Source: Candidatus Altimarinota bacterium (GTDB taxonomy: Bacteria > Patescibacteriota > Gracilibacteria > BD1-5 > UBA2023). From it: a stretch of DNA of 64,000 bases. How positions within the stretch are numbered: the first letter of the stretch is position 1; every line of letters begins with the position of its first letter. The stretch is from positions 14,130 to 78,129 of the forward strand of contig JAYVGV010000037.1 in the NCBI GenBank assembly GCA_043771825.1. Direction: 5' to 3'. Made by a program: the position numbers and the translations under genes. Below the pieces are notes generated by a model. The model ran no database searches and was not told the DNA's origin. It saw only the letters and a program-made list of their open reading frames with translations. This document shows, in pieces, positions 24,713-52,574 of the stretch.

Positions 24713-26062
24713 ATGCTGAAGGCTCGACAATTTCTGTTTCCTGCTTTTCTTCTCTTAGCACTCACTGGGATTATCTATGTCCTCTCGGCTTCTGAAGAGA
24801 CCCTGCTCTCTAAGAATTATGGTAATCCCCATGTTGTAGGCATTTTCAATACATGAGGGAATGCTGGCATGATATCTTTTGATGATGTGCCATATGGATA
24901 CTCAGGAGCTCAAGTGATATGATATGGAAGTACTGTTGTGACATTGACGGGTATATTTTGGATGGAGACGACTGGGTGGGCAACTTTCTCTGAGAGTCAA
25001 GTCACGATGATACCGCCAGTCTCATGAGATAACATCCGTGATCCCTGGTATCTCTCTGGATATGCCTGGAGTCCGAATGCTGGCTGGATCGCACTCAATC
25101 ACGGAGAGTCGTATGCATCAGGTGTAGCTTTCATGCCTGACATCAGTCAGCTCGTATGATATGGCTATAGTGAGAATCTTGGTTGGATACCCTTCTGAGA
25201 ATATTCTGGTTCTGGTATTGCTGTAAATATGAGTGATTGATTCATCTGAAAGGTATCGATCGCAGGGAGTATAGGATGATCCAAAACTTTCAATGTCCTC
25301 TATGATGTAGGAGGATCTTTTAATACTGTCTCCATGACAGCATTCGTGAATCTGGTGCGTAAAAATATCACGATACTGCTACGAAATGCAGGATCAAAGA
25401 TCAATACAAATCTCAGTGGACTCTGAGCTCAGTCATTCAATAAATCAATGATATTTCGAACGGAAAATAACCCGACATCAACATTTGTAAAATATTCAGA
25501 TATTAAAAATGCCTTCAACTTCGATCTCTCACGGAGCCTGATAGTGATAGGGGCTGACATATATATCGATGTAGATGCTCCAAATGCTATCTGATCCTCT
25601 CGAGCGATCATCGCTCTGAAAAATGAAAAAGGTGAATGAGGAAATATCTATATTGATGGATCGGTGAAGATTATAGAGTCAGTACTTTTTTCGGAGAGAT
25701 CTATCATATCTTGAGCAGAGTTTATCACGGGTTCACTCTCTTCATACTATGTCTCGAAGAAATCCGTATTTCTCGATATTCCACGGAACCAACTCTATAT
25801 CAAGTGAGCTATCTGAGGATTCAATACTATAGGCTGAAGCTCGAAAGATGATGGTGCTGTCTGTCCATATCTCAGTGATAACTCGATCTTATGTAGCTAT
25901 GATAACGCTATCAAATATGATTGGAACTATTTCCGTATATACAACTGATCTCCCGCCCGACGAGCCTACCCAAATAGCTCGAAAGATGCATTCTCCGTCA
26001 TCATAGAGTACGACCCTCGTATCGTCCAAGATCCACCTCCAGGACTGGAGACTCTCAACTAA
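24713..26062 (+). CDS. 449-aa secreted GW-motif protein, partner of fibre protein 1
   Basis: ATG 24713 to TAA 26060-26062. I checked every line in this frame: about 17 TGAs, no TAA/TAG. Signal/TM FLFPAFLLLALTGIIYVL. Repeated GWATF / AGWIAL / LGWIPF motifs. Ends ...VIIEYDPRIVQDPPPGLETLN. Paralog of 40240..41589, with identical length. Confidence 0.75.
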
Positions 26063-26117: not shown

Positions 26118-29100
26118 ATGTCTTTCTTTCGTATACCATTCATCGTTGTTCTACTTTCATTGAGTAATGTAGCTATGACAGGAGCTGTAAGCTATCCATC
26201 TACAGGTCCTGCAGGAAGCTATTCAGGATGAAGCTTTGGGACATACCTCCAGAACTTGATCACCAATCCTTGTCCTCTATGACAAGTGATGACAAGTTTT
26301 AGTACATGAAGTTCTGACTATGGTAGACCCAATTGTGTATTTGCTTCACTTCCACCATGAGTATTTGGCAATACCGTATACTATAATGGTAGCTCATGGG
26401 TAGCGAGTAACGTCATATATAATGATGCTGTCAATGTCGGTATCTGACTCGGGGGATTAGTGCCACAAGCAAGACTAGAAGTAGGCTGAGGAGTGAAGAT
26501 CGCTGGTGATACCGCTCTCTGCAATACCGGGAAAGCCGGTACTATACGATATAATGGTACGAATGTCGATTATTGTAATGGTACAACTTGGTGATCTCTC
26601 GGATGATCAGGAGGATGGTGACTCACGGGAAATGGGGGAACAAATTCAGGAACCAACTTCCTCGGAACGACAGATAATATCGATCTCGTATTCAGACGCA
26701 ACAATATCGAAGGGATGCGTCTCTCTGGTGCGAGTGGCAATCTCGTGACGACTGTAGATGCCACGATCAATGGAGTGATAGTAGGACGAGGAGGAGGGAA
26801 TATTGATACCAACACCGCGAATGGATCGGGTGCTCTCTTCTCCAACACCACAGGAGATAGCAATACCGCGAATGGAGTCGCTGCTCTCTATTCCAACACC
26901 ACAGGAATCTACAACACCGCAAATGGAGCCTTTACTCTCCAAAACAACATCACGGGAAGCTTTAATACCGCGAATGGAGCCTCCGCTCTCATCAGCAACA
27001 TCACAGGTAGCGACAACACCGCAAATGGACATGGCGCATTAGGAAATAATACTACTGGAAACTCCAACACCGCGAATGGACTGAGCGCATTAGTACGTAA
27101 CACCACTGGAACCAACAACACCGCGAATGGAGTCTTTGCTCTCTTCTTCCACACCACGGGAACCGGCAACACCGCGAATGGATTTCGGGCTCTCTACAAC
27201 AACATCACGGGAAACTTTAATACTGCACTTGGGAGCTCTGCAGGATCCGCTATTACCACTGGTTCATCGAATATTGCCATAGGATACAATGCTCAGGTAG
27301 CGTCTCCTACCGGATCGAATCAGCTCTCTATCGGGAACTGGATCTATGGAAGTGGTGGGAATATCGGTATCGGTACCTCTACTCCATGAGCTCGGCTCGA
27401 AGTGGCAGGACAAGTGAAGATCACAGGTGGTTCTCCATGAATTGGAAAAGCCCTAATCTCAGATGCTACAGGTCTCGCAAGCTGGCAGACTCCAAGTGGT
27501 GGCAGTGGCTGTATACCGAGTGGAACGGGTGCAGATAATACTTGTCTTTGAACAGGGGCTTTACAACTCAATACAATTGGAACACTAAATACAGCGATAG
27601 GGAATCAAACATTGAGTAAAAATACTACTGGTTTTATAAATACATCAATTGGTGATAGAGCCTTACGAGATATGACAATAGGTGATTCAAATACTGCTAT
27701 CGGATGATGATCTATGAAACTTAATGTTTCTTGAACGAATAACACAGCAGTATGAGCAAATTCTTTAGTCAACCATACTTCAGGCAATAAAAATGCTGCA
27801 TTTGGTGAATATACTCTCAACGCTCTTACGAGTGGTAATGCAAATATTGCCATCGGTAGTGCAGCTTTCTATACTCTGACTTCAGGTTCAGATAATATAG
27901 CTCTTTGAGCAAATTCTACCTTAACTGTAGGTTCCAATAATATCGCTATAGGGAATAATCTTGCTTTAGCATCTTGATCAATAAACAAACTCAATATCGG
28001 TAATTGGATCTATGGAAGTGGGTGAAATATCGGTATTGGTACTTCTACTCCATCCGAAAAACTCGAAGTGGCTGGAGGAGATGCTATCATCTATGGAGTG
28101 AGAGTAGGAAGAGGAAGTGGGGCTATTGCTACGAATACAGCAGTAGGATCTGGTGCTCTCTTCTCCAACACCACAGGATTCTATAACACCGCGAATGGAG
28201 GGAGTGCTCTCGGCTCCAACACCACAGGATTCTATAACACCGCGAATGGAGGCATTGCTCTCTACTCCAACACCACTGGGGGCTGGAATACCGCGAATGG
28301 ACTCAATGCTCTCTACTCCAACACCACGGGATGGTATAACACCGCGAATGGAGCCTCTGCTCTCCAGAACAATACCACGGGAGAATTCAACACCGCACTC
28401 GGCTCTCAGGCAGGATCAGGTATCACTACTGGATCATCGAATATTGCCATAGGATACGGTTCTCAGGTAGCATCTGCTACTGGATCGAATCAGCTCTCTA
28501 TCGGGAACTGGATCTATGGAAGTGGTGGGAATATCGGTATCGGTACTGCTACTCCATGAGCTCGGCTCGAAGTAGCAGGACAAGTGAAGATTACTTGAGG
28601 TGCACCCTGAGTGAATAAAGTCCTCATCTCAGATGCTACAGGTCTCGCGAGTTGGCAGACGGTGCCAGCATCAACGAGCTCATGGAATATCCTCGGAAAT
28701 AGTGGTACCGTCGCAGGTACCAACTTCCTCGGAACCACGGATAATATCGATCTCGTATTTAAGACGAATAATATAGAACAAGCAAGATTGTATGCTTCTA
28801 ATACCGGTGGCATATCTCTCTGAAAGTCAAATAATAGCGTGACTACTGATAGATCATATATAATCGGTGATACCAATACTCTCAGTGGTTCATTTGGCTT
28901 TATATTTTGAAGATCGAATACTCTGGTAGGCGTAGGTGCAGATATGATACTCTGATACAATAATCAGCTTACTACATCATATGGTCTAGTGAATGTCATC
29001 GGATCAAATAATGTCAAAACGGGATCATGGGGAACTGTCATATGAAGATGAAATACTGTCACGGGTGGTGATAGTACGATAGTGATGTGAGAATCAAACT

Positions 29101-32100
29101 CTATAACAGGACATAATGCTATCGTCATGGGAAACGGGAATAATGCGCCGTATAATAATGACACGATAATCTATGGAAATGCGAACTCTCTCGACACAAA
29201 TATACATTATAATGTACTGAATGGTATATCGAATAAGGCAACTACCAATGGTTGAATGGGATGACGTATAGCATATGGTATAGCCAATAGCTCCCAACAA
29301 GGCTGAGCTATAACTATAGGATCATATAATACAGGATCAGCATCCAATGCTATAGCTATAGGATCACGTATCGATAATAACATCGCAAACTCAGTACAAA
29401 TAGGTCCAAATGATGCTTCGAAAATCACTATCCTTTCTTGATGACAGATGGGTATCGGTACTTCTACTCCATCAGCTCTACTCACGGTCTCAGGTTCGGC
29501 ACTCATCACGAGTGACCTCACAGTCCAAGGGAAGGTGATCTCTGATACCTTCGTGAATCGTACCGTGAATAATGTCACGATCTCAGGATCCCTCCTGCCT
29601 GATCTCGCAGCTCCTCTCGCTTACCGTGATATCGGAAATAATACGACGCAGAGCTGGAACAATCTCTATCTCTCTGGTCAGGTGACTATCAAGGGTGGCG
29701 CTCCCTGAGTAAACAAGTTTCTCACCTCAGATGCTACTGGTCTCGCGAGTTGGCAGACAGTGCCAGCTTCTCTGAACTCATGGAATATCCTCGGAAATAG
29801 TGGTACCGTCGCAGGTACCAACTTCCTCGGAACGACAGATAATATCGATCTCGTATTCAGACGCAACAATATAGAGGGGATGCGTCTCTCTGGATCGAGT
29901 GGCAATCTCGTGACGACTGTAGATGCCACGATCAATGGTATAACCGTAGGAAGAGGAGGTGGCGCGATAGCAACCAATACTGCTGTCGGGTCTGGTGCAC
30001 TTCAGGCTAACACCACAGGAAGCAACAACACCGCGAATGGAGCTAATGCTCTCTCCTCCAACACCGATGGATCCAACAACACCGCGAATGGAGCTAGTGT
30101 CCTCGCCTTCAACACCACGGGATACTCCAACACCGCGAATGGACATTCTGCTCTCTACTCCAACACCACGGGATACTATAACACGGCGAATGGCGTCTCT
30201 GCTCTCTACTCCAACACCACTGGGGGCTGGAATACCGCGAATGGATCCCTTGCTCTCCAGTCCAACACCACAGGAAGCAACAACACCGCGAATGGAATAC
30301 AGGCTCTCCTCTCCAACACCACGGGATACTGGAATACCGCGAATGGAGAGGGTGCTCTCCTCTCCAACACCACAGGAAACAGCAATACCGCGAATGGAAG
30401 GTATGCCCTTGCTAACACCACAGGAAATAGCAACATCGCACTTGGGATTGCTGCAGGATCGACTATCACCACTGGATCATCGAATATCGCTATCGGTAAT
30501 GCTGCACAAGTAGCATCTGCTACCGGATCCAATCAGCTCTCTATCGGGAACTGGATCTACGGAACGAGTGGGAATATCGGTATCGGTACCGCGACTCCAT
30601 GAGCTCGGCTCGAAGTCGCAGGACAAGTGAAGATAACTGGTGGTACTCCTGGTCTCGGTAAGATCCTCATCTCAGATGCTACAGGTCTCGCAACATGGCA
30701 GACCCCAATGGCTTCTCTATCAGGATCGTTCTGGTCTCTCCTTGGAAATAGTGGTACGGTCGCAGGTACCAACTTCCTCGGAACGACAGATAATATCGAT
30801 CTCGTATTCAGACGCAACAATATAGAGGGTATACGTCTCTCTGGTGCGAGTGGGAACCTCGTCACTATAGTAGATGCTACGATCAATGGTGTAAGAGTGG
30901 GAAGAGGAGGAGGGAATATAGGGAGTAATACCGCGAATGGATCGGGTGCTCTCTCCTCCAACACCACGGGAACCTCCAATACTGCGAATGGAATACAGGC
31001 TCTCTGGCTCAACACCACAGGCTTCAATAACACCGCGAATGGAGCCGTTGCTCTCGCCTACAACACCACGGGAACCTCCAATACCGCGAATGGAGTGCAG
31101 GCTCTCTGGCTCAATACAACAGGCCTCAACAATACCGCGAATGGAGCGCAGGCTCTCCGGTCCAACACCACGGGAAACTGGAATACCGCGAATGGACATT
31201 CTGCTCTCTACTCCAACACCACGGGATACTATAACACGGCGAATGGCGTCTCTGCTCTCTACTCCAACACTACAGGAATCTATAACACCGCGAATGGATC
31301 CCTTGCTCTCTACTCCAACACCACAGGCTTCAATAACACCGCGAATGGAGCGCAGGCTCTCTATTTCAATACGAGTGGATCCAATAATACGGCGAATGGT
31401 CAGAGTACTCTTGCCTTCAACACCACGGGAGTCGGCAACACCGCGAATGGAATACAGGCTCTCTATTCCAATACGTCTGGAAGTGCTAATGCCGCGAATG
31501 GTGCTAGCGCTCTCTTCTCCAACACCACTGGAAGTGGTAATACAGCGAATGGAGCCAATGCCCTCTACTTCAACACCACTGGAAACTTCAATACCGCGAA
31601 TGGAGTGCAGGCTCTCCAGTCCAACACCACTGGATCGGATAATGTGGCGAATGGAGTCTCTGCTCTCCGCTTCAATACCACGGGAACCGGTAATACAGCG
31701 AATGGATCCCTTGCTCTCTACTCCAACACCACTGGGGGCTGGAATACCGCGAATGGACTCAATGCTCTCTACTCCAACACCACGGGATGGTATAACACCG
31801 CGAATGGTGGAGGTGCTCTCAATTCCAACACCACGGGAAACTTCAACACCGCACTTGGACTCTTTGCAGGCAACCTTATCACCACAGGATCATCGAATAT
31901 TGCTATAGGCTACGGTTCTCAGGTAGCGTCTCCTACCGGATCGAATCAGCTCTCTATCGGGAACTGGATCTATGGAAGTGGTGGGGATATCGGTATGGGT
32001 ACCTCTACTCCATGAGCTCGGCTCGAAGTCGCAGGACAAGTGAAAATCACAGGTGGTTCTCCATGAATTGGAAAAGCCCTAATCTCAGATGCTACAGGTC

Positions 32101-33296
32101 TCGCAAGCTGGGGAACTCCTATCAACTGTACAGCATCTGGAAGTGGGCTCAATAATATTTGTTATGGTACCTTCTCCCTACAAAATAATACTACAGGACA
32201 AAATAATGTCGCCTATGGAAACGAGGCACTCAGAAATAATAACGGAGGAAGTGCGAATGTGTCCCTCTGATATGGGTCTATGTACTACAATACGAGTGGA
32301 TCGAGCAATGTGGGAATCGGTGTATATGCTCTCAATAGTAATACTACTGGTGTTGCGAATGTCGGTATCGGTCCAGATAGTCTTGCATATGCAAGTACAG
32401 TGAGCTATAATATCGCTTTGGGAAGTTCTTCACAGAAAGAAAATAGATCTTGAAACAATAACGTAGCAGTAGGTGCAGAAGCTCTCAGGCTTAACTTCAC
32501 TGGATCCTTTAATTCAGCATTTGGAAATGCAGCAGCTACTCAGATGCAGTCCACTGCAAGTAGTTTTGTAGAATGAAATAATGCGTTTGGAGCCTATGCT
32601 CTCCAAGGAGGAAGTAGTACAGGTAGTCTCAATACTGGATATGCTAATTCGGCATTTGGTAACTATGCCCTTCTCGGAACCACAGGAACTCCGACTACAG
32701 GATTCCAGAATTCAGGATTTGGTAATACTTCTCTTCAGACAGTGACAAGTGGATCCAATAATGTCTGAGTAGGATATGGAGCAGGGAATGGACTCACTTC
32801 AGGATCCAACAATATCTTTATCGGTGCCAATATCGTTCCCGTCTCAAATACTGCTTCAGATCAGCTCTCTATTGGGAACTGGATTTATGGAAGTGGGTGA
32901 AATATAGGTATCGGAGTATCTAGTCCAACACAAAAACTCCACGTGAATGGAAATGTCCTTGCTGATGCATTCCTCTACGTATCTGATGCTCGCATGAAGC
33001 AAGACGTGACAGGTATAGAGAATGCTGATGATATACTCACGAAACTTCAGGGAGTGCGATTTGTCTGGAAAGCAGATGGTCGAGCGGATATAGGATTTAT
33101 CGCTCAGGAAGTAGAGAAGGTACTTCCTGACCTTGTCCATACTGATAGTACTGGCATGAAGAGTGTCGAATATGGGAATATCATCCCAGTTCTTGTCGAA
33201 GGATATAAGTCAGAAAAATCTCGTGCTGATCTACTCGAATCTCGAATGGACACACTTGAGGCCCGACTCCAATCCCTTGAATCTGCTAATAAATAA
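26118..33296 (+). CDS. giant modular tail-fibre-like surface protein 1 (2392 aa) with C-terminal Peptidase_S74 chaperone domain
   Basis: Track ORFs 26715, 28068, 28611, 29448, 29760, 30627 and 32943 are all in the frame of ATG 26118. I read the gaps between them codon by codon and found only TGA. TAA at 33294-33296. Signal peptide MSFFRIPFIVVLLSLSNVAMTG. About seven modules, each ending NQLSIGNWIYGSGGNIGIGTSTPGARLEVAGQVKITGG.PG.GK.LISDATGLASWQT. Four arrays of 17-aa SNTTG..NTANG..AL repeats. C-terminus VSDARMKQDV...RFVWK...IGFIAQEVEKVLPDLV...VEYGNIIPVLVEG plus a coiled coil. Confidence 0.85.
26800..27235 (+). repeat. 51-nt (17-codon) tandem coding repeats, array 1 of fibre gene 1
   Basis: TCCAACACCACAGGA recurs at 26841 and 26892 (51-nt period). 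About 8 units of SNTTGxxNTANGxxAL[YF]. Confidence 0.8.
27294..27485 (+). repeat. 192-nt module-junction repeat, copy A
   Basis: Matches 31920..32111 with 4 mismatches by my alignment. Shorter, related copies at about 28492-28590 and 30525-30645. Confidence 0.85.
28149..28402 (+). repeat. 51-nt tandem coding repeats, array 2
   Basis: About 5 units: ALFSNTTGFYNTANGGSALGSNTTGFYNTANGGIALYSNTTGGWNTANG... Confidence 0.8.
29990..30440 (+). repeat. 51-nt tandem coding repeats, array 3
   Basis: About 9 units: ALQANTTGSNNTANGANALSSNTDGSNNTANG... Confidence 0.8.
30930..31865 (+). repeat. 51-nt tandem coding repeats, array 4 (longest)
   Basis: About 18 units. Almost free of stop codons in several frames on both strands, which explains track ORFs 30937..31908(+) and 30720..31199(-). 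Confidence 0.8.
31920..32111 (+). repeat. 192-nt module-junction repeat, copy D
   Basis: Direct repeat of 27294..27485. The offset is 4626 nt (3 x 1542), so the copies are in the same reading frame. Confidence 0.85.
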
Positions 33297-33304: not shown

Positions 33305-33796
33305 ATGAAAAATAGATATCATCCCATCCACTATGTACTTGTTGTATCCATCTTAGGAGTACTTGCTCATTATATTATCGCTTTTGCAATAGTTGATGAG
33401 TGAAGAACACTTCAGAGTTTTACTTTACCAGGAGGAGCAATATCAACATCATTTCAGTCACTTCAAAATGGTTGGAGGAATAATGGTATAGAGACTTTTG
33501 ATATCACTACTCCTGAAGCGTGCTATACTATAAATGTAAGTGATACACGAAACTTCTTCATACCTACGAGGACACTCCAGGAATGGACAAGGTTTAAAAT
33601 CGCAGGATTAAATACGATAACGCCTTATACTTGCTGATCAACATGTGATATCAATAGTGGTCCTGTGATGTCAGAGGTAGTATGTCCACCTAAAGAGATG
33701 TGTACATTTGGTATTAAGTGTATACAATATGCAAATGAATGTCAAATGATAGCAGCATGATGAACTGTCGGCCCAAACTGTCAGCTAGCTATTTAA
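33305..33796 (+). CDS. small Cys-rich membrane-anchored protein (163 aa)
   Basis: ATG 33305, 9 nt after the fibre-1 stop, to TAA 33794-33796, with four in-frame TGAs. TM helix YVLVVSILGVLAHYIIAFAIV. C-terminus has 8 Cys (TPYTCGSTCDINSGPVMSEVVCPPKEMCTFGIKCIQYANECQ). No family recognised. Confidence 0.55.
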
Positions 33797-40239: not shown

Positions 40240-41589
40240 ATGAATCGTAAACTTATATTTGCGATCATGCTTATCGTTCTTATGGGTGCAGGTATTTTTA
40301 ATACCTTCTGAGTAGGGAAATTTTTTCGTCTCCGAGGAGATTTTATACCGAGTCTCTCCTGGTCTTGAGGATATCCTGGGAGAGTATTATTTGATATTGC
40401 GACTGGAGCAACAAATAGTGGATTTGCTCCAGGGATTGATCTAGATGGTTATCTTTCGGGTTCATTCTGGCTTGGGAATGTCGGGTGGACTACCTTTAAT
40501 CATAGTACTACAGGTGTCGCTCAAGCACGAGTCCTCTGTGCGAATATCGTATTTAATGACCCAAATATTACCTGTCCTGTCGATGGATTTGCTTGGAGTC
40601 GAAATAGCGGATGGATCGCCCTATCAGGATCATTCATCGATGGAGGATCCTGAGTATACTATAATCCTGCAGCATGACGTATACAATGATTCGGGCATAG
40701 TACAGCACTCTGATGGATACCTTTCTATGCTGATACGACCACGCCAGTGACTACGACGACTCAAACGTGAGTCCTCCTTAATGGTATGGGGCTTAACTTC
40801 ATCTGAAAGATCGCTATAATAGGGAATATAGCAGGTACACGAATATTTAATGTCACGAATCAGCAGGTATGATATGTATTCACGACGATCAACCATGCAG
40901 ATATGCTCAATATTATCCGAAAAAATATCGCACTCATATCGCGAAATGCGAATCCTACAGAACTCGCAGATCCTTTTAGTACGAAGTTTAATTTTCTTCT
41001 TCAAAAAGGCTCTGACTATGATACGAGTATCCCATGATGGACTTGGCCGACTTCCAAAAAATCGATCATCATCATCGGATGAGATGTCATACTCGATCAA
41101 TCTCAAATCTGACTTATTAATACAAATAAAGCCCTCATAGTTCTCAAAGATGAGAGCGGAAGCTGAGGAAATATCATCATACGAGAAGGAGTGGGTCGTA
41201 TATATGCATTTATCTATGCTGAAGGTTCTATATATTCCTGAGATAAGACGGCTACATGACTCATAGTACCTTATGTGGCGAAGTGAGTATGGAATATACC
41301 AGGAAATCAGCTCTATATCAAGGGGGCTATCATCTCAAAAAATACTATCTGAGGATCACTCCAGTCCCCACCTACTTGTCCTGTAGTGATAGCGAACTGT
41401 GATGCACTCAATTCGCAAATCTATGATGTGAACTATTTTCGTACCTATGACTCTACAGATCTCACTCAGAGGAATATCCCCAGTATGTACTATAATGATC
41501 TACGCTTTTCTGCTGCATCTACCGTCATTGAATACAATCAATCTCTCGCGACGGATCCACCTCCAGGGATATCATCAATATTCCAATAA
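40240..41589 (+). CDS. 449-aa secreted GW-motif protein, partner of fibre protein 2
   Basis: ATG 40240 to TAA 41587-41589, read line by line (about 25 TGAs, no TAA/TAG). Shares these with 24713..26062: GWIAL, LGWIPF, FIGK[VI].I.G.I.G..[TI]FNV, IRKNI, GGNI.I, PGNQLYIKGAI, NTIGGS, and the C-terminus VIEYNQSLATDPPPGISSIFQ. Confidence 0.75.
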
Positions 41590-41610
41590 ACTTCTCTAAC
41601 CTTTCTTCCC

Positions 41611-44600
41611 ATGTCTCTTCGTTTTACTGTAGCTCTCTCCCTTCTCTTCTTCTCGTACGCTACGATATCAGTACATGCTCTTGCATATCCTACGACTACA
41701 CCATCTGGAGAAACCACAGGAGGTACATATCGTACGTACTTTGATAATATTTTCCAAGATCTTTGAAGTGACTGTAATCTCAGTGGAAGAGTGATCGGAG
41801 GATTTGATTCTGTATGAGTACCGATATGTGTCACACCAGTTTCTTCAGGATTATTCCTCTCGGGCCAGACGAGTGGTGATACGATTAGATTCGATGGGAC
41901 GCTCTGGGTAAGAAATAATCTTCTCTATAACAATGGTACAGCTATAGGCATAGGTACGACGAGCCCTGCGTATATACTCGATGTTGGTGGAACAGCGAAC
42001 TTCATAGGATTGCGTATGCCGACGGGTGCTGGATCAGGAAGGGTGCTCACTTCGAATGCTGCTGGAACTATGTACTGGGCAAGCTCCATATCTGGTGCCA
42101 CAGCATCGGGTATCACAGGGGGGACACAGAGCTATATACCAAAATTTGGAATCTGATGAAATGGACTTATCCTCTCTCAATTTTTCGATAATGGCACAAA
42201 TATCGGTATTGGTACAACTATACCAACAGCGAAGGTAGATATATCGACTGTAGGAACGGCACCATTCCAGATACGAAGTGGAAATGGAAGTGCATCTTAT
42301 GTGAATAATCAAATACTCTTCTGATGGAATGGGAGTGATGGATATAGACATGCTATCAAGACTCGACACAATGGAGGAGGACTTTCTGATAATGCTATAG
42401 ATTTTTATGTATGGGATCAATCAACAGATGTTTCTACTACTATAGGAACTCGAAGGGTGATGACTCTCGAAGGTGCGAATGGTGGGTCAGTCGGTATAGG
42501 TACCCCTACAATTTCTTCTTGAGCAAGACTCGAAGTGGCAGGGCAGATAAAAATCACAGGAGGCGATTTCTGATCATGAAAAGTACTCACGAGTGATGCC
42601 AGTGGTCTTGCCGCGTGGCAACTGCCAGGAGCAGCATCGAGTGTCAGTGCAACAGGTATTACTGGCGGCTCAGGCTACTATATTCCATTTTTTTGATCCT
42701 GATGAAATGGGCTTTACTCGTCATTCATGTATTTTACATGATGAAAACTAGGGATCAATACTACAAGTCCGACATATATGTTCGATGTACAATGAGATAA
42801 TAGCATTATCCGTGCTTGAAGTGGTTTTTGTCTGGGTATGACAGCATCAGGATGTATCACGAATTGGTCAGATCTGAATAATATGGTGAGAAGTAGTGGT
42901 ACTCCGAATTATATAGCAAAATTTGATACGGGATGACTTATCGGTAATTCGCAATTATATGAAACTGGAGGTAATCTTTATATATGAGATATTCCAGCAA
43001 TTCTTTGAGGAGCAGCTACGATATGATATGTTACTATAGAAGCAAATGGAAGTACAAATTCATCGAATCCATTTCTTACACTTTCTGAAATGTGATGACA
43101 AGAATGTCGTATGTGGATTACTTGAGCGAATAAACTCGGATCAAACTGTAGCTGGAATGCCGGAGGTGGTACATATCAGCCAAATCAAGTCATAAAAGCT
43201 GATACAGCAGGAAGCTCATTGACAGGTACGAATATGTATAATGTAGGACAGTTTGTCGGAATTTGAACTAATAATCCTACTACAACATTGACAATAGACT
43301 CTGGAGTTGATGATGATTCTGGGCTGAGGTTTTCCCGTGTTGATACATCCACACCACTTATCTCAAATGGTGTACTCGCTCTTTGAGTGAATGCTTCAGG
43401 GAAAGTAATACCGATCAGTCCTATTAGTAATATCGCAGTATACAATGGTGTCGATAGAGTAACTGTAATGAGTCCAAATCCTGATCTTAGTACATTTAAC
43501 ATTACCTATGATTTTAATCGGTTTTTTGCTATTCCAGGAAAACAATCATTCGTCGTAAGTAGTGGAGATTCTTCCTCGTATAATGGTCCATATTTTAAAG
43601 AAAACGGTACGAGTGCACTTTGTTCTGTCAATGGTACTTATGGTACAAGTCCATATGATTGTGCTGATCCTGATCCAGCTACAGGTATTTCTGCAAGTCC
43701 ATTTAATTCTTTTACTATGACAGCAAAGGGTGATACATTTGGATATCAGATCGCGCTTGGGGCACGCTGAGATGCTCCGCTTTTTGCTCGAAGTGGTCGA
43801 TATAATGGCTCACAAACAGGCTGACTCTATACCAATGACTCACCTTACCAGACTCCAGCACCATGGCAGAAAGTCCTCTCGCTTCCAGCGCATCATCCTG
43901 AGTATCTCTATATCAATACAGGACTGAGTTCTCAGCTCCAATCTCAAACATGATGATGAAATGTCGGTATCGGTACGACTACACCACAGAGTCGATTCGA
44001 AGTATGGACTGGTTCTACTACGACAGCACTCATACATTTTCGTGGAGTGAATAATGTCGGTATGGGTCTTGGAGCTTCGCGTCCTCAACAGAGTGGAAAT
44101 GCGAATAGTGCATTCGGAAATGAATCATTATTCACTCTGACATCAGGATATTCCAATACTGCTATAGGATATCGTTCTCTTCGTCTTACAGCTGCTGGAT
44201 TCAATAACTCTGCAATTGGACAAGAGGCACTCTATAATAATAATGGTTGAAGCTGGAATACAGCAGTCTGATACCAAAATCTTTATTCTGTAACATCAGG
44301 AACGAGAAATATAGGACTTGGCGCACAAGCTCTCTATAACCTCAGTACATGAAATGATAATATCGCTATCGGATATCAGGCAGCTCGTGTTCTAGCTGGA
44401 AGTGCAATATCCAATAATATTGCCATATGATATCAATCTCTCTACTCTGCTACAACATCAAATCTCCTCGCTATCGGATATCAAGCCCTTTATCATAATG
44501 CATGAGGAATAGCAAATCAATGAGTAGGATATCAAGCATTGTTTTCAAATACGTCAGGAAACTACAATACGGCTGAATGATATGAAGCACTGAGTGCAAA

Positions 44601-47493
44601 TACTACAGGAGCAAACAATACGGCTATCGGATATCAGGCACTTGATACAAACTCTACTGCTAGTAATAATACTGCTATCGGATATCAGGCACTTCTCCTC
44701 AATACAGCATCATCAAATACCGCTGTATGACAACTTGCACTCAGGTCCAATATAAGCTGATGAGCGAATACAGCACTAGGATTAGAGGCTTTATATGCGA
44801 ATACTACTGGCACGAGTAATGTCGCTATAGGACTTCAGACGATGAGCTCAAACTCTACTGGCTGGGAGAATGTCGCTGTATGAAAGTGAGCTATGAGTAG
44901 TATATGATCTGCACCACAAAACAATACAGTAATAGGTACAAATGCTGGAAGATGAGGTGGGACAAGTAGCTCGAATAGCTCGAATAATGTAATTATCGGT
45001 CATACAGCTTGATATGCAATAAATGGTGGAAATAATAATGTATTTCTCGGTACCAATGCATGAAGTGGTATCACAACAGGCTCAAATAATATCGTGATAG
45101 GAAATAATGCTTCACTCGCTTCAAATACTCTCTCGAATCAGCTTTCTATCGGAAACTGGATCTATGGAAGTGGATGAAATATCGGTATCGCGACGAATGC
45201 TCCCACGACGAATCTAGATATCAATGGAACTATACGAATCAGAGGAGGAGCACCTGGTGCTGGAAAGATACTCATGTCAGATGCTGTATGACTTGCCAGC
45301 TGGCAGACGCCGACAGGTGCGGCTGCTATACCATGGGCAATCGCGGGAAATGCTGGTACTGATCCAAATAGTAACTTTGTCGGAACTACTGATAATTTTG
45401 CTCTGACGTTCCGTACAAATAATATCGAAAATATGCGACTTCTCACGAATGGCAATCTCGGTATCGGTACGAGTACTCCTGCATCTCGACTCAGTATATC
45501 ATGAGGAGGATTCTCTGTAGGATACCCTACCAATGCAGCACCGACTGATGGAGCTATAATATCTGGAAATATGGGTATCGGGATTATTTCTCCTTCAGAA
45601 AAGCTCACTGTCAATGGTACTATAGAGAATCCTGCTGATAATAGCGCTATCGTATCCGGAAATGATCGGGCACTAGGATTTATCAAAAAAAGTGGACTTA
45701 TAGCTCAAGTATCAACGAACAATGTGAATCCAATAATTTTCTCAAAACTGAGTACTGCAACTATTACTTCAGCAAATGTAGCAGGATGAACTCTTACAGA
45801 ACTCATGCGTATACAAAATAATGGTGATGTCGGTATCGGTACAGCTGCTCCATGAGCACGACTTGATGTGGCAGGACAAGTAAGAATAACTGGTGGATCT
45901 CCTGGACTTGGGAAGATCCTCGTTTCTGATGCTACGGGTCTTGCGAGTTGGGAGACTGCTGCGACTGGATCATTTGCTGGATGGTGAGTCCTCGGAAATG
46001 CAGGAACTACTGCTACGACGAACTTCCTCGGAACCACAGATAATGTCGATCTCGTAATCCGTACGAACGCTACTGAAAAAGTGCGAATCCAAGCAGGATG
46101 AAACGTCGGTATCGGTACCAATAATCCTTGAGAGAAACTTGATGTGCTCGGTAATATCCGTGCTGGAACTGCTACTCCAAACACCATGATGGGAACACAT
46201 CCATCGTATGGAAATACCTATTCAGCTTGGTGGAAGTCTGGACTTGACTATTCTCTTCTGACGGATGCTACTCATACGTATCTCAATGCTCCACAAGCAA
46301 CATGAAATATCCATTTCCGTACAGCAAATACAGATAAGATGTTCCTGCGTGGAAGTGATGGGAATGTCGGTATCGGTAATACAGCTCCATGAGCAAGACT
46401 CGAAGTCACATGACAAGTGAAGATCACTGGTGGTGTTCCAGGGGCTGGGAAAGTCCTCACTTCCGATGCTACGGGTCTCGCGACTTGGGTACTTCCGACA
46501 CTGAGCTTCACAGGTGGTACGACGAACTATCTCACAAGATGGACATCAGCGAGTACTCTCGGTATAGGAGTGACATTTGATAATGGTACAAATGTCTGAA
46601 TTAATACTACTTCACCTGCGTCTAGACTCGATGTCAATGGTAATCTCGCAGTACGATGAGATGCAGGAGGGTCTATCTATACATGGAATGGGTGAGACAC
46701 AAGTTGGAGATGGGGAACCTCCAACGTTCCATGATATGCTCGATTTATCGCAACAGGGTACAATCAATTTGCAATTTTTGGTGCTGCAACAGGAAACGGA
46801 TTCTCAGTATGAGATGCGAGTACAGGGCTTTCCGCATTTGAAGTGACGAGTTCTTCAAATGCATATAAATCATACTTTAGATGAAATGTCGGTATCTGAG
46901 TTGATCCGACGCAGTCTCTCGATGTGACTGGGCAGATACGTATACGAGGAGGCTCTCCATGAGCTGGGAAGTATCTCGCTTCTGATGCGAGTGGAGTAGG
47001 GACATGGACGACGCCAGCAGGAAGCCAGACGGGTACGTATATCTATCGTATGGCGACACCACAAAGCTCTACCAATACGACTCTTGCATGAGTGACACAG
47101 CTTACCAGTACGCCACTCCCAGTATGACCATATCAATTCGAAGTGCTAGGAAGATTCCAGTCAGCTGCAGCGAATACTGGTCTTGGTCTTACTCTTGCTC
47201 AGACAAGTGGTGCAAGTACAAATTTCATGGGAACTATGAGTGCACAGCTGACAAATTCTACGATGTATAGCGAATCATTTATGGTCCAATGAACTGCAGT
47301 GACGACTACAGGTGTTCCTCTAGCAAATACAGATTACATAGTGATGATGAGAGGATCATTTGATATCACGGCTACTGGTACAGTAGCGGTACGGATGGCT
47401 ACAGAAAATAATGGTACTCAGGTCATCCTCGGTGTGTGAACTGCACTCATCATCAAGTCACTTGATCCAAATATAGCAGGAGGAGGTATATAA
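41611..47493 (+). CDS. giant modular tail-fibre-like surface protein 2 (1960 aa), no S74 domain
   Basis: ATG 41611, 21 nt after the partner gene. I read every line to TAA 47491-47493 and found no TAA/TAG but many TGAs, including TGATGATGA at 43951-43959. The N-terminus is paralogous to fibre 1 (AYPTTTPSGETTGGTYRTYFDNIF vs SYPSTGPAGSYSGGSFGTYLQNLI). Recurrent N[VI]GIGT..P...L[DE]V.G...I and GG.PG.GK.L.SDA.G.A.W junctions. Distinct beta-rich C-terminal domain. Confidence 0.85.
44090..45130 (+). repeat. degenerate coding repeats (NTAIGYQAL type) in fibre gene 2
   Basis: Series of SGYSNTAIGYRSL, FNNSAIGQEAL, NDNIAIGYQAA, SNNIAIGYQSL, ANNTAIGYQAL... units, many with TGA-encoded Gly. Related to, but more diverged than, the NTANG arrays of fibre 1. 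Confidence 0.7.
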
Positions 47494-49498: not shown

Positions 49499-49573
49499 TC
49501 CCCGATAGCTCAGCGGTAGAGCAACCGGCTGTTAACCGGTAGGTCGTAGGTTCGAATCCCACTCGGGGAGCCA
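49499..49573 (+). tRNA. tRNA-Asn (GTT anticodon), CCA encoded
   Basis: Cloverleaf: acceptor TCCCCGA/TCGGGGA, D-arm GCTC-AGCGGTA-GAGC, anticodon arm ACCGG-CTGTTAA-CCGGT, T-loop TTCGAAT, 3' GCCA. A TTGACT element at 49411-49416 may be its promoter. Confidence 0.9.
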
Positions 49574-49590
49574 TTTTCAACTTTCAGCAC

Positions 49591-49624
49591 AAAAGAGCAG
49601 TTCACTGAACGGCTCTTTTGTTTT
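49591..49624. terminator. bidirectional terminator shared by tRNA-Asn and hsdR
   Basis: AAAAGAGC-AGTTCACTGAACG-GCTCTTTTGTTTT hairpin. Overlaps the hsdR stop codon (49623-49625). Confidence 0.55.
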
Positions 49625-52574
49625 ATAGTTTTTCCTTGAGTTTCTCAGTTACCATCTTATCGAGATACCTGATGAGGTGATCTTGGAAGTCACCATTGTC
49701 ATGATAGTTATTATAAAATTCCAGATGATCATCGACATTGATAGTGAGCTTTTCATCGAGGAGTTTCTTGAATTCGAGTTTCCTATTCGCCCTATCTGTC
49801 TGAAGTGAGTCGATCATTCGCGGATCTCATACGATCTCATCAGAAATATCAGAAATCATTTTTTTGACACTATCCTCACTACTGAAGTTGGTTCCAAATC
49901 GGGTATTGAACTCAGTGACGATATGTTCGAGAATATCTGAGGGAGCATCACCTCCAGAGCCTTTCAGAGTTGTCGGCATAGGCTCTATCTCACTATCTTC
50001 AGCAAGACTGATCCGAGCGTTTGAGGTCAATTTCTCATTGCGATAGGATCCAACCTCTATGGCACCCAGTACATCTTGACTTATCATGGTCTCTTTTGAC
50101 CCGAGTTCGATGATTTTCTTGTTCAGGATCTTCAGAAATTGATGCAACTCTTCGAATTCAACTACTTCATAGTTCACTATTTGTGATATAAAACTATAAA
50201 ACTTCGTATATGATTTTGCTTTATCCTTGAAGTCATCGATTTGGTCGACTGGGAGCTTGCGGAGATTTTCGACGACACTATCGAGTAGGGCGTGGAGCCT
50301 CTCGACTGGCACTCAGCTGAGTATATCTGTGGCAAATTTGTTCACGACATAGGTATCGTATACGCCGAAGGCATCGAGAGTATCCTTGAGATCGTGGAGC
50401 TTGTTTGGATCACTTGCTTTGGAGAGTATCGTAGTCTTGTAGTACGGCTCAAATGAAGACTGAATATCATCCTCAGTATTATAGAAATCCAATACAAAAG
50501 TACTCTCCTTATCCTTGTGAATACGATTGAGTCGTGAGAGTGTCTGTACGGCATTGACTCATCCGAGCTTCTTATCGACATACATCGTCTGGAGGAGTGG
50601 CTGATCGAATCCTGTTTGGAATTTGTTGGCACATATGAGTATCTGATAACTGCCATTTTCGAACTCATCAGGGATCTTACTGGAGCTGAATTTATTGATA
50701 TTTGACTCATTCCAATCAGTGCCATCGAGATTCACATCTCCAGAAAAAGCCACGATGACAGCGAGCGGGAGATCTTTTTGCTTGATAATCTGCTTGAATG
50801 CGAATCCATACTTCACCGCACTCTTGCGACTTCCACATACGACCATCGCCTTTGCTTTGCCTCCCACAAGTCACTTGAGATATACCTGATGATAAAAATG
50901 ATCGAGCATCACCTCAGCCTTGATCTCTATCGTTGCACTATGTGTCTCTACGAACCCTTTGATTTGCCTATTCGCTCTTTTTTTATCATATTCTCGATCC
51001 TTATCTCCTGTGATAGCGAGCTCATAGTAGCTCTTGTAGGTGGTGTAATTGCGTAGGACATCGAGGATGAATCCTTCTTCTATAGCCTGTTTCATTGTAT
51101 AGTTGTGGTAGGCTCGATATTTGCCGTCTTCTCATCTCACTCCGAATATCTCCAAGGTTTTGTTCTTTGGAGTCGCTGTGAAGGCAAAATAACTCGCATT
51201 CGGGAGCATCTTGCATGCCTGAAGAGTATCGAGAACTATATCTTCATCCGTCATCGGATCTGTAGTATCATCATCAGTTGTACTCATCGTCTCATTCATC
51301 TTCCCTATGGTCTCTCAGCTCGTACTGGAGTGAGCCTCATCGATGATGATGGCGAATTTCTGTCCAGAGAGTTCACCTATAGTATCGACTATCATCGGGA
51401 ATTTTTGTATCGTGGTGATGATGATCCTCTTGCCACTTTCGAGAGCTTCTTTGAGTTGTTTGCTCCCATCGGTGATCGCCTCTACGAGTCCACGAGTATG
51501 ATCGAATCCGCTCACTGTATCTCGGAGCTGTTTATCGAGTACCTGACGATCCGTGATGATGAGGATACTATCGAACACATTGGTCTTGCCATCTTCCCGA
51601 TAGAGTCCTGCGAGAGAGTGAGCGAGCCATCCGATAGAGTTACTCTTGCCACTTCCTGCACTATGTTGGATGAGATATTTTTGACCTGTTCCTTTTTCTC
51701 TGGAGTCTTGCAACAACTGATTCACGACAGTGAGCTGATGATAGCGAGGGAATATCAGCTTCCTGACTTTTTTATCTCACTTTTTCTCTACGATGACCTG
51801 AGCAAAGTCTCGGATCAGTTTCGAGAGATTCGACTTGGTGAGGATCTCTTGCCACATATAACTCGTACGCATCCCATCTGCGACAGGGGGATTCCCCGCT
51901 CACTCATCGAATCATCGATTGAACGGGAGAAACCAAGTCTTGTCATCCTCAAGACGAGTCGTCATATAGACGAGCTCTGTATCCATAGCAAAGTGAACCA
52001 GGCATCTCTCGAATCTGAAGAGTTCCTCTCGACTACTACGATCCGTCTTGTATTGGTCGATAGCATCCTTCACTGTCTGTCCTGTGAGGAGATTTTTGAG
52101 CTCCAGAGTGACGATAGGGAGTCCATTGATGAGGAGTACCATATCGACAGACTTGTTATTCTGAAGGCTAAAAAATAACTGACGAGTGACAGTGAAACTA
52201 TTGGCTTCCCAGAGAGTCGCAAGATCCGCATTGAGGGATGAGTTCGGCTCAAAGCAAAAGAGCATAATATGCGAATCACGATCCTTGACTCACTTTCGCA
52301 TCACATTGATGATTCCTTTTTCTGTGATCTCTTTCTGCACTCGCTGGAGGAATCGGATCTGATAATCCTCTCCATAGTTGACTCGGAGTTTCTCGACTTC
52401 TCGTGGCTGTGTCCGCTCGATGAAGTCCCAAAATGCTACGAGATCGATACACTCCTTGCGATCATAGTGACCCAAGTGATCTCCACTATAGAACTTCTGG
52501 ACGAATCCGTTGCTCTCTATGAGCGTGTCTGTAAAAAGTTGTTCGAATCCTGATTCGCGAATATTGGTAGACAT
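49623..52574 (-). CDS. hsdR: type I restriction enzyme, R (helicase/nuclease) subunit
   Basis: Seven track ORFs (52290..52574 down to 49623..49817) are in one frame joined by TGAs; I checked the gaps. Motifs: QHSAGSGKSNSIGWLA, IIIDEAHSSTSG (DEAH box), FAFTATP, ANKFQTGFDQPLL. 983 aa, TAA 49623-49625. Confidence 0.92.

What the first reader, a model, noticed from the sequence alone, without database searches (positions are those of the whole stretch)
40240..47493. Fibre cassette 2: paralogous partner (identical 449-aa length) plus 1960-aa fibre with a different tip
The partner proteins share many collinear motifs: GWIAL, LGWIPF, FIGK.xIxGxIxG, IRKNI, GGNIxI, PGNQLYIKGAI, NTIGGS and VIEY..DPPPG. 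The fibres share the N-terminal 60 aa and the junction modules.

The central region of fibre 2 (about 42100-43800) and its last roughly 160 aa differ from fibre 1. The tail reads ...YQFEVLGRFQSAAANTGLGLTL...IVMMRGSFDITATGTVAVRMATENNGTQVILGVGTALIIKSL and is unrelated to fibre 1. A conserved base with a swapped distal domain is the pattern seen in receptor-binding proteins that diversify host range. The beta-rich tail may be a jelly-roll or C1q-like tip, but that is a guess.
Basis: partly seen in the sequence, partly recalled or inferred. Interest (0 to 1): 0.8.

Follow-up and report, generated by a model that had tools for sequence, protein, structure and literature searches.

The report
Phage-like surface fibre with partner gene
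An uncultured, host-dependent bacterium (Gracilibacteria, which reads TGA as glycine) carries a conserved gene pair: a membrane-anchored protein of unknown fold and a roughly 2,000-residue surface fibre built from phage tail-fibre parts, here ending in a C1q/TNF-like tip that probably grips other cells.

Summary
Under the standard code no ORF exceeds 470 aa. Both partners are 449 aa and are true paralogs (35% identity, E = 8e-55). The two fibres share a signal peptide, an N-terminal domain of about 125 aa and junction modules, but end differently: fibre 1 in a Peptidase_S74 chaperone (SDARMK motif), fibre 2 in a 155-aa beta-sandwich.

The context is a Gracilibacteria chromosome (tRNA synthetases, Lgt), not a phage. 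The partner-then-fibre pair recurs in 29 of 30 Gracilibacteria loci. Seventeen complete fibres carry at least five tip classes on one conserved N-terminal domain.

The fibre-2 tip models as a TNF/C1q-like jelly roll. It belongs to a family of 5,623 representatives, sitting at the C-terminus in all 150 listed, often in phage tail fibres. The tip is not hypervariable: it shows zero SNPs across samples and 90-93% identity to an ortholog.

The closest known system is the Bdellovibrio MAT (mosaic adhesive trimeric) fibres. The partner has no Pfam, PDB or viral relative. I infer, without testing, that it anchors or assembles the fibre base. Verdict: a new variant of a known kind.

The parts
40240..41589 (+). 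Partner 2 (449 aa). N-terminal transmembrane helix followed by an extracytoplasmic two-domain body with conserved Cys pairs and a C-terminal DPPPG motif. Member of a Gracilibacteria-restricted family with no annotation.
   Evidence: ORF under code 25; hydrophobic N-terminus; 87 homologs, none with Pfam or a functional name; no Pfam, NCBIfam or PHROG hit; no PDB sequence hit; AF2 model of ortholog P0010 has pLDDT 77.8 with helix 2-24; no significant PDB fold match.
41611..47493 (+). Fibre 2 (1960 aa), a secreted mosaic fibre. It starts 21 nt after the partner's stop codon with no terminator in between, which is consistent with an operon.
   Evidence: PHROG hits to tail spike, tail fibre and virion structural proteins over aa 921-1530.
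41611..41991 (+). Signal peptide (about aa 1-23, ...SVHA|LAYP) plus the conserved N-terminal base domain (to about aa 127). Signature: YP..TP.GE..GG.Y.TYFDNMF...C...G.V..GF...G.P.C, with two invariant Cys.
   Evidence: Conserved at 30-69% identity in nearly all fibres downstream of partner homologs. Absent from viral contigs.
43183..43980 (+). Central conserved globular domain (fibre 2 aa 525-790) of unknown fold. It is the best-conserved part among orthologs and recurs at different positions in at least 11 other fibres.
   Evidence: No PDB or Pfam match.
44038..45180 (+). Block of NTAxG-type short repeats (about aa 810-1190), ending in the SIGNWIYGSGGNIGI junction.
   Evidence: PHROG hits to phage virion structural and tail spike proteins.
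45382..45564 (+). NFVGTTDN... module (aa 1258-1318) with sequence similarity to the beta-helix of Bdellovibrio MAT fibre Bd3182.
   Evidence: phmmer vs PDB: 8ojn/8onb/8onc, E = 4.8e-4. The entries are identified in PMC10769870.
45511..45810 (+). Internal module (aa 1301-1400) that is swapped relative to orthologs: about 20% identity, against 70-90% in the flanking regions.
46891..47025 (+). Last junction module (aa 1761-1805): GIGVDPTQSLDVTGQIRIRGGSPGAGKYLASDASGVGTWTTP.
47026..47493 (+). C-terminal tip domain (aa 1806-1960): an all-beta TNF/C1q-like jelly roll and the probable ligand-binding end.
   Evidence: AF2 model of the 66%-identical ortholog (pLDDT 71.7, pTM 0.68). Foldseek vs PDB and BFVD. 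Family of 5,623 representatives, C-terminal in all 150 listed. Relatives on phage contigs.
47502..47534 (.). 13-bp hairpin between the convergent fibre 2 and ABC-F genes; a likely bidirectional terminator.
   Evidence: a consensus scan only.
24713..26062 (+). Partner 1 (449 aa), a paralog of partner 2.
26118..33296 (+). Fibre 1 (2392 aa). It has the same base domain and junctions, with large NTANG repeat arrays.
32982..33140 (+). Peptidase_S74 intramolecular chaperone / autoprotease domain of fibre 1 (aa 2289-2341), with an SDARMK motif at S2289.
   Evidence: Pfam PF13884, 52.9 bits against a cut-off of 22. Motif found.

Best explanation
Cassette 2 is a two-gene operon in a Gracilibacteria chromosome (genetic code 25).

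The second gene encodes a Sec-secreted, 1960-residue, probably trimeric surface fibre built like phage tail fibres and like the Bdellovibrio MAT adhesins. Its parts, in order, are:
- a signal peptide;
- a lineage-conserved N-terminal base domain of about 105 aa;
- a long shaft made of shuffled junction, repeat and insert modules;
- a C-terminal TNF/C1q-like jelly-roll tip.

I infer that the tip binds a surface ligand, most likely a glycan, on the cells this host-dependent bacterium attaches to. Its paralog, fibre 1, uses the same base but ends in a self-cleaving S74 chaperone, which would expose a different binding end. The two cassettes would therefore give the cell two different specificities.

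The first gene encodes a 449-residue protein with one N-terminal membrane helix and an extracytoplasmic body of unassigned fold. I propose that it holds or assembles the fibre's conserved base domain at the membrane of this single-membrane cell.

Shown: gene structure, code, paralogy, conserved pairing, module mosaicism, tip fold class, and cellular rather than viral context.

Inferred: trimer state, surface display, ligand binding, and the partner's anchoring role.
For: Code 25 and gene models.

Cellular context (CysRS, ValRS, Lgt, sugar transferase, ABC-F, type I R-M, M23, PKD, prepilin peptidase). Synteny Lgt-partner-fibre is kept in a relative at about 70% nt identity.

Partner followed by a giant ORF in 29 of 30 Gracilibacteria loci; the other contig ends inside the partner gene. 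One of the 29 downstream ORFs (L034) is not a fibre. The window has exactly two partners and two fibres.

The N-terminal domain is conserved in nearly all of these fibres. Partner and N-domain identities co-vary, r = 0.82.

Tips: at least 5 classes. Fibre 1 has S74 with SDARMK. The fibre 2 tip model matches 2WQ4 (BC2L-C), PLTL, TNF ligands and C1q, and phage collagen/tail-fibre proteins at TM 0.7-0.8. The tip family has 5,623 representatives and includes collagen-repeat and phage-encoded members.

The shaft matches phage tail-fibre PHROGs and Bdellovibrio MAT Bd3182.

The MAT paper defines the same architecture, with S74 and TNF-like tips. Bd2734's best structural match is also 2WQ4. The paper states that the surface element binding the N-domain is unknown (PMC10769870).

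The sister lineage Vampirococcus has a fibrous surface attributed to giant proteins (PMC8080830).
Against: - There are no expression, localisation or binding data.
- Trimerisation was not modelled.
- The tip model has only moderate confidence (pLDDT 72). It was built on an ortholog whose database sequence has Trp at its TGA (Gly) positions. PDB matches are at E of about 4e-4 with high RMSD.
- Homology of the N-terminal domain to the Bdellovibrio MAT N-domain could not be tested.
- The partner's role rests only on adjacency, topology and co-inheritance. The r = 0.82 is confounded by shared phylogeny.
- One partner-like gene (L034) is not followed by a fibre.
- The lack of tip variation within the population argues against rapid arms-race diversification at this locus.
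Confidence: 0.6

Rival explanations
1. The partner is not an anchor. It is a dedicated export, folding or assembly factor for the fibre, or a co-displayed accessory adhesin or lectin that works beside it.
For: The same adjacency and co-inheritance data fit this reading. The partner's N-terminal half has repeated W..N.GW motifs and faint resemblance to lectin folds (fucose lectin AAL, MBHA) at non-significant scores. Fibre 2 lacks the S74 chaperone, so it might need help to fold.
Against: Fibre 1 has its own S74 chaperone yet keeps a partner. Phage tail-fibre assembly proteins are usually small, soluble and encoded downstream (established knowledge), whereas this protein is 449 aa, membrane-anchored and upstream. 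It has no PHROG hit.
Confidence: 0.25
2. The cassette is phage or prophage cargo: a tail fibre or receptor-binding protein with its accessory protein.
For: The shaft and tip modules are shared with phage tail fibres. Fibre 1 has an S74 domain.
Against: No phage structural, packaging or lysis genes are nearby. The flanks are housekeeping genes with conserved synteny. Both proteins carry export signals. The partner and N-domain have no relatives in IMG/VR. The pair is present in essentially every Gracilibacteria locus examined.
Confidence: 0.04
3. The fibres are structural envelope or cell-cell cohesion elements (a fibrous coat, or stalk formation among sister cells) rather than host or prey recognition devices.
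For: Vampirococcus shows fibrous material between its own stacked cells as well as toward the host (PMC8080830). The cassette is invariant within the population.
Against: Tip-class turnover on a constant base and lectin/TNF-type or S74-type ends are hallmarks of ligand-recognition fibres. A purely structural coat would not need five or more tip types.
Confidence: 0.1

Closest known systems
Bdellovibrio bacteriovorus MAT (mosaic adhesive trimeric) fibres (Caulton et al. 2024, Nat Microbiol, PMC10769870)
   Same: - A cellular, not viral, phage-tail-fibre-like surface fibre in a bacterium that lives on other bacteria.
- A signal peptide followed by a conserved N-terminal domain of about 130 aa.
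- A long mosaic shaft.
- Two subtypes, one ending in S74 (SDxxxK) and one in other tips, including TNF-like domains. Bd2734's best match, 2WQ4, is also the top PDB hit of the fibre 2 tip model.
- Direct sequence similarity of one shaft module to Bd3182 (E = 4.8e-4).
   Different: - The host is a single-membrane CPR bacterium with code 25, a lineage not in the paper's selection of MAT homologs.
- The fibres are about twice as long (1960-2392 aa against about 1000 aa).
- Each fibre gene is preceded by a conserved membrane-anchored partner gene; no partner is described for MATs.
- N-domain homology to MATs is untested.
- The Bdellovibrio tip structures themselves were not among the top 50 Foldseek hits.
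Phage tail fibres and tailspikes with a C-terminal Peptidase_S74 intramolecular chaperone (e.g. K1F endosialidase, T5 L-shaped tail fibre), and phage collagen-like fibres with C1q/TNF-like ends
   Same: Fibre 1 has a bona fide S74 domain with the catalytic SDxxxK motif. The fibre 2 tip is a sequence-family and fold relative of phage fibre C-termini. The junction and repeat modules hit tail-fibre PHROGs.
   Different: The genes are chromosomal housekeeping-flanked genes with Sec signals and no virion genes nearby. The N-terminal domain is not a phage baseplate or tail attachment domain and is absent from viral contigs.
Trimeric TNF-like lectins (BC2L-C N-terminal domain of Burkholderia cenocepacia, 2WQ4; PLTL of Photorhabdus, 9IB7) and C1q domains
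   Same: These are the best PDB fold matches of the tip model (E of about 4e-4, TM up to 0.66 on the target). They suggest a trimeric sugar-binding end.
   Different: Sequence identity is only 7-14% and there is no sequence-level homology. Binding-site residues and oligomeric state were not assessed.
Two-partner secretion systems and trimeric autotransporter adhesins
   Same: A giant repetitive adhesin-like protein encoded next to a smaller dedicated partner (as in TPS). The NTAxG repeats resemble YadA-like head repeats by eye.
   Different: The partner shows no POTRA or beta-barrel transporter domain, and the fibre shows no TPS domain, Hep_Hag repeat or YadA anchor, by Pfam. Both systems need an outer membrane, which this lineage is not thought to have.

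Membership tests
MAT (mosaic adhesive trimeric) fibres, as defined in PMC10769870 | A signal peptide immediately followed by a conserved beta-rich N-terminal domain of about 130 aa shared by all family members | tested here: inconclusive
   A conserved domain of about 105-125 aa directly follows the signal peptide in both window fibres and in nearly all fibres of the related loci. Homology to the Bdellovibrio N-domain could not be tested: no Bd N-domain sequence is available in the PDB or in the paper's supplement.
MAT (mosaic adhesive trimeric) fibres, as defined in PMC10769870 | C-terminus is either an S74 chaperone/protease with SDxxxK or an alternative adhesive tip (TNF-like, C-type lectin, novel beta-sandwich) | tested here: met
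   Fibre 1: PF13884 at 52.9 bits and SDARMK at S2289. Fibre 2: TNF/C1q-like model whose top PDB hit is 2WQ4. Five or more tip classes across the family.
MAT (mosaic adhesive trimeric) fibres, as defined in PMC10769870 | Shaft homologous to MAT or phage beta-helical fibre modules | tested here: met
   Fibre 2 aa 1258-1318 vs Bd3182 (8ojn), E = 4.8e-4. PHROG tail fibre and tail spike hits from 1e-19 to 1e-44. The Bd3182 match covers only about 60 aa.
MAT (mosaic adhesive trimeric) fibres, as defined in PMC10769870 | Homotrimeric fibre displayed on the cell surface and engaged in prey or host contact | not testable with these tools
   No multimer prediction, proteomics or imaging is available. 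Only export signals and analogy support it.
Peptidase_S74 intramolecular-chaperone fibres | C-terminal PF13884 domain above the gathering score, with a catalytic Ser-Lys (SDxxxK) motif | tested here: not met
   Not met for fibre 2, the subject of the finding: no Pfam hit and a different C-terminus. Met for the paralogous fibre 1.
TNF / C1q-like jelly-roll domain superfamily (fold level) | Compact beta-sandwich of about 10 strands with jelly-roll topology, superposable on TNF/C1q domains | tested here: met
   The model has 12 strand elements, pLDDT 71.7 and pTM 0.68. Foldseek probability is 1.00 to BC2L-C-Nt, PLTL, 4-1BBL, RANKL, TNF, TL1A and Caprin-2 C1q, and to C1q-like and collagen-fibre phage proteins at TM 0.7-0.8. 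The model is of the 66%-identical ortholog P0088, not the window sequence itself.
TNF / C1q-like jelly-roll domain superfamily (fold level) | Trimeric assembly with a ligand site at protomer interfaces | not testable with these tools
   Only a monomer was modelled. Indirect support: family members are fused to collagen triple-helix repeats (P0102, P0104).
Phage tail fibre plus tail-fibre assembly/chaperone gene pair | Encoded in a phage or prophage genome, with an accessory protein related to known Tfa or chaperone families | tested here: not met
   The context is cellular. The partner has no PHROG or Pfam hit and no relative in IMG/VR.
Two-partner secretion (TpsA/TpsB) | A TpsB Omp85-type transporter (POTRA plus beta-barrel) and a TPS secretion domain at the TpsA N-terminus | tested here: not met
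   No such Pfam domains in the partner or the fibre. The partner model is a single-pass membrane protein, not a barrel.
Trimeric autotransporter adhesins | A C-terminal YadA-type membrane anchor and Hep_Hag/HIM head repeats | tested here: not met
   No PF03895 or PF05658 hits at E <= 0.01. The C-terminus is the TNF-like tip.
DGR-diversified receptor-binding tips | A template repeat nearly identical to the variable tip region, a nearby reverse transcriptase, and adenine-specific variation | tested here: not met
   No second copy of the tip DNA in the window. Zero SNPs in the tip across samples. No RT domain in the window proteins scanned with Pfam; some smaller window ORFs were not scanned.

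The most novel reading that the evidence does not exclude
The 449-aa partner is the dedicated membrane dock for the conserved N-terminal base of MAT-type fibres. That would make this a two-component 'dock plus interchangeable fibre' adhesin system specific to Gracilibacteria. It would also be the first identified surface element that retains a MAT-like fibre on a cell, a component explicitly described as unknown for the Bdellovibrio MATs. The partner's ectodomain would then be a new fold, and partner/N-domain pairs (p1-f1, p2-f2) would be cognate.
Probability: 0.3. Interest if true: 0.72.

Novelty: new variant of a known kind. Interest (0 to 1): 0.6.

Why it matters
Gracilibacteria have not been cultured. 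How they find and hold on to their hosts is unknown, and published genome studies point mainly to pili. This cassette offers concrete and widely conserved candidates for host recognition: fibres with exchangeable, phage-type binding tips.

It also extends the recently defined MAT-fibre concept from Gram-negative predators to a single-membrane CPR lineage with a recoded genome.

The tips are small, independent domains that could be expressed and screened on glycan arrays or used to fish for host cells. The strictly co-inherited partner gene is a testable candidate for the missing piece that fixes such fibres to the cell.

A practical point: public protein databases translate these genes with TGA as Trp or as stop. 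That hides or corrupts them.

Tried and rejected
- **Standard-code ORF calling** gave nothing above 470 aa. Code 4 (TGA = Trp) was rejected in favour of code 25.
I therefore modelled database orthologs instead: P0088 for the tip (it carries Trp at TGA sites) and P0010 for the partner.
- **Family and sequence searches:** Pfam, NCBIfam, PHROGs and PDB-sequence searches of the partner and the tip all came back empty.
- **Partner fold search** against the PDB found nothing significant.
- **Strain differences upstream:** the apparent differences in L002-L004 were gene-calling artefacts, because the DNA is 99.7-99.9% identical.
- **Hypervariable-tip idea:** rejected. A DGR was rejected locally.
- **Prophage reading:** rejected.
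- **Published 'hypervariable' Gracilibacteria gene:** it is a PTD-repeat protein and unrelated.
- **Literature:** the full-text searches I ran found no description of this cassette.
- **N-domain and tip profiles:** the first, broader alignments were too diverse for the viral-contig pattern scan. A tighter N-domain set worked and found nothing.
- **MAT paper supplement:** it holds no N-domain sequences, so direct comparison was impossible.


Full report
**Observation**

With the standard bacterial code the window has no ORF longer than 470 aa.

TGA encodes glycine, not tryptophan. In the partner-vs-partner alignment, TGA lies opposite TGA or Gly codons and never opposite Trp. At the conserved glycine positions of the repeated junction and GIGT motifs the codons are GGN 62 times, TGA 16 times and TGG 0 times. 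This is genetic code 25, the code of Gracilibacteria and Absconditabacteria.

Under that code the coordinates are exact:

| Gene | Window position | Length |
|---|---|---|
| Partner 1 | 24713-26062 | 449 aa |
| Fibre 1 | 26118-33296 | 2392 aa |
| Partner 2 | 40240-41589 | 449 aa |
| Fibre 2 | 41611-47493 | 1960 aa |

The partners are 35% identical over 396 aa (E = 8e-55). The fibres share their first 125 aa or so (30.5% identity, E = 9e-12), junction modules (60-66%) and repeat blocks (36-52%). Fibre 2 aa 128-290, aa 345-781 and the last 155 aa have no counterpart in fibre 1.

**Context**

The genes are chromosomal, not viral.

- Flanking genes encode CysRS, ValRS, Lgt, a sugar transferase, an ABC-F protein, a type I restriction system, two M23 peptidases, PKD-domain proteins and a prepilin peptidase.
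- Four metagenome contigs carry the same strain at 99.7-99.9% nt identity.
- A relative at about 70% nt identity keeps the order Lgt, partner, fibre.
- Only 21 nt separate the partner's stop from the fibre's start, with no terminator between them. A 13-bp hairpin follows fibre 2.

**The cassette is a lineage-wide unit**

- The partner has 87 homologs among 5.8 billion proteins. None has a Pfam domain or a functional name, and every source name that exists says Gracilibacteria or Altimarinota.
- A scan of one genome per prokaryotic species found 30 loci. All are in MAGs labelled Gracilibacteria, Patescibacteria group or Peribacteria, and they include human-oral GN02.
- In 29 of the 30 loci a large ORF (144 to more than 3,300 aa, many cut off by a contig end) starts right after the partner. 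The remaining contig ends inside the partner gene. One of the 29 downstream ORFs (L034) is not a fibre.
- Nearly all of these proteins begin with a signal peptide and the same N-terminal domain, with signature YP..TP.GE..GG.Y.TYFDNMF...C...GF...G.P.C.
- The window holds exactly two partners and two such fibres.
- Partner identity and N-domain identity co-vary across 367 locus pairs (r = 0.82). This shows they are inherited as a unit. It does not prove binding, because shared phylogeny contributes.
- Neither the partner nor the N-domain has any relative in 2.9 million viral contigs.

**The fibre**

Both fibres are mosaics of GIGTxxP...L.V.G junctions, NTAxG-type repeats and inserted domains.

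- Fibre 2's shaft matches phage tail-fibre, tail-spike and virion-structural PHROGs, with E from 1e-19 to 1e-44.
- Its only solved-structure relative by sequence is Bd3182 (8OJN/8ONB/8ONC), a Bdellovibrio MAT fibre (E = 4.8e-4).
- Modules occupy different positions in different fibres.
- Against its orthologs, fibre 2 is collinear. One internal module (aa 1301-1400) is swapped, at about 20% identity. A 265-aa central domain (aa 525-790) is the best-conserved part. It recurs in at least 11 other fibres and has no Pfam or PDB match.

**The tips**

Fibre 1 ends in a Peptidase_S74 intramolecular chaperone (52.9 bits against a cut-off of 22), with the catalytic-type motif SDARMK at S2289.

Fibre 2's last 155 aa have no Pfam, NCBIfam, PHROG or PDB-sequence match. 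Even so, they belong to a large unannotated family.

- A profile search found members fused to collagen triple-helix repeats, to phage-fibre N-termini and to coiled-coil-like stalks. One lies on a clear phage contig with terminase, portal and capsid genes.
- A full HMMER scan of 1.84 billion cluster representatives found 5,623 members (1,960 at E <= 1e-10). In the 150 listed, the domain is always at the extreme C-terminus of proteins of 155-1983 aa.
- Only the window's own fibre among those 150 has the Gracilibacteria N-domain.

An AlphaFold2 model of the 66%-identical ortholog has pLDDT 71.7 and pTM 0.68 and is an all-beta sandwich.

- Its best PDB matches are the trimeric TNF-like lectins BC2L-C-Nt (2WQ4) and PLTL, followed by TNF-family ligands and C1q domains.
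- Against predicted viral structures it has 246 matches at E <= 1e-3. The best reach TM 0.70-0.80 and RMSD 2-4 Å, to phage collagen-repeat proteins, tail-fibre proteins and 'lambda Stf' proteins, and to C1q-like proteins of giant viruses.

**Diversification**

Across 17 complete Gracilibacteria fibres there are at least five tip classes on the same base:

| Tip class | Fibres |
|---|---|
| TNF/C1q-like | 5 |
| S74 | 5 |
| Cys-rich short tips | 4 |
| Oral-GN02 type | 2 |
| L035 type | 1 |

So 'conserved base, exchangeable tip' holds at the family scale. At short range the tip is stable. Partner 2 and fibre 2 show zero differences in three other samples, and the tip is 90-93% identical to the L006 ortholog and 67-69% to L005, at or above the fibre average. 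No template copy of the tip exists in the window, so there is no sign of a diversity-generating retroelement. The only polymorphic stretch nearby is fibre 1's NTANG repeat array.

**The partner**

The AlphaFold2 model of the correctly translated ortholog P0010 (67% identical) has pLDDT 77.8 and pTM 0.71. It shows an N-terminal membrane helix (aa 2-24), a beta-rich N-terminal half and a well-predicted C-terminal half (pLDDT 85-95). It has no significant PDB fold match (best E = 0.14). Conserved cysteine pairs fit an extracytoplasmic location.

**Comparison with what is known**

The architecture matches the MAT fibres of Bdellovibrio bacteriovorus (PMC10769870):

- a signal peptide plus a conserved N-terminal domain of about 130 aa;
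- a long trimeric mosaic shaft;
- either S74 (SDxxxK) or non-S74 tips, including TNF-like domains.

Bd2734's best structural match is 2WQ4, which is also my tip model's top hit. That paper lists MAT homologs in several predator-associated phyla but none in CPR bacteria. It states that the surface element bound by the N-domain is unknown, and it describes no partner gene.

I could not test whether the Gracilibacteria N-domain is homologous to the Bdellovibrio one. I therefore call these fibres MAT-like, not proven MAT members. Two-partner secretion, trimeric autotransporters, phage fibre-plus-chaperone pairs and DGR targets all fail defining features tested here.

**Mechanism, best estimate**

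The fibre is exported by Sec and probably trimerises. For fibre 1 the S74 chaperone would assist trimerisation and then cleave itself off. The fibre projects from the cell with its N-terminal base held at the membrane and its C-terminal tip outward.

- The fibre 2 tip, a TNF/C1q-like domain, would bind a surface glycan or protein on the cells this host-dependent bacterium attaches to.
- The two paralogous cassettes would give two specificities.
- The partner, a single-pass membrane protein with a large outer domain that is always co-encoded, is my best candidate for the dock or assembly platform of the base domain.

The first part, a MAT-like adhesin fibre, I hold at about 0.7. The partner-as-dock idea I hold at about 0.3. 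The overall statement I put at 0.6. The sister lineage Vampirococcus has a visibly fibrous surface attributed to giant proteins (PMC8080830), which fits this picture.

**Verdict**

The phage host-range framing and the expectation of hypervariability were wrong. This is a new variant of a known kind: phage-derived mosaic adhesin fibres in a recoded CPR lineage, coupled to a previously undescribed partner family.

Noticed in passing
window 49499-52574 (tRNA-Asn 49499-49573; HsdR 49623-52574); L001 19293-21350; L004 18787-20844: A strain-variable island starts right after tRNA-Asn. The window, L002 and L003 carry a type I restriction-modification system there. L001 and L004, which are otherwise 99.7-99.9% identical, carry a serine recombinase; L001 also shows an R.HinP1I-like gene next to it. 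Identity to L001 and L004 stops at window position 49593.
   Followed up: partly
window 30800-32010 (fibre 1 NTANG repeat array); L003 1-1110: All local between-sample variation is concentrated in fibre 1's repeat array (up to 41 differences in L004, 13 per kb), and L003 has a repeat-block length difference. This could be real repeat turnover or gene conversion, or an assembly ambiguity in repeats.
   Followed up: partly
window 43183-43980 (fibre 2 aa 525-790): A 265-aa domain with two invariant cysteines and many invariant residues is the most conserved part of fibre 2 among orthologs (97-98% to L006). It recurs at different positions in at least 11 other Gracilibacteria fibres. It has no Pfam or PDB match, and its fold and function are unknown.
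   Followed up: partly
window 4550-24552: The region upstream of cassette 1 is rich in surface and host-interaction genes: two PKD-domain proteins (6952-12135, 1727 aa; 4550-6901), two M23 peptidases (14131-15612; 22495-24552), a prepilin peptidase (18467-19438) and a pilin-like gene (15723-16403).
   Followed up: partly
database proteins P0001, P0088, P0143 and most of P0002-P0087: Public protein collections translate these Gracilibacteria genes with TGA as Trp (code 4). This gives about 4% wrong residues: P0001 looks 96% identical to partner 2 although the DNA is identical. Trp content of 4-6% flags the affected entries. Structure and homology work on this lineage should re-translate from DNA.
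   Followed up: yes
window 33305-33796: A 163-aa Cys-rich protein with an N-terminal hydrophobic segment sits immediately after fibre 1 (it overlaps the fibre's stop region) and is conserved in the same place in L001-L004. It has no Pfam hit. No equivalent follows fibre 2.
   Followed up: no
L034 76-3732: One distant partner-like gene (31% identity) is followed not by a fibre but by a protein whose N-terminus looks to me, by eye, like the start of a ribonucleotide reductase (ATP-cone). So the pairing is not absolute for the most divergent family members.
   Followed up: no
L036/L037 8001-8627; L038 324-1178: Short (208-aa) and collagen-repeat proteins carrying the same TNF/C1q-like tip are encoded in phage or phage-like contigs. 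L038 has terminase, portal and capsid genes. L036 and L037 are long blocks of unannotated small ORFs with a phage metallopeptidase.
   Followed up: partly
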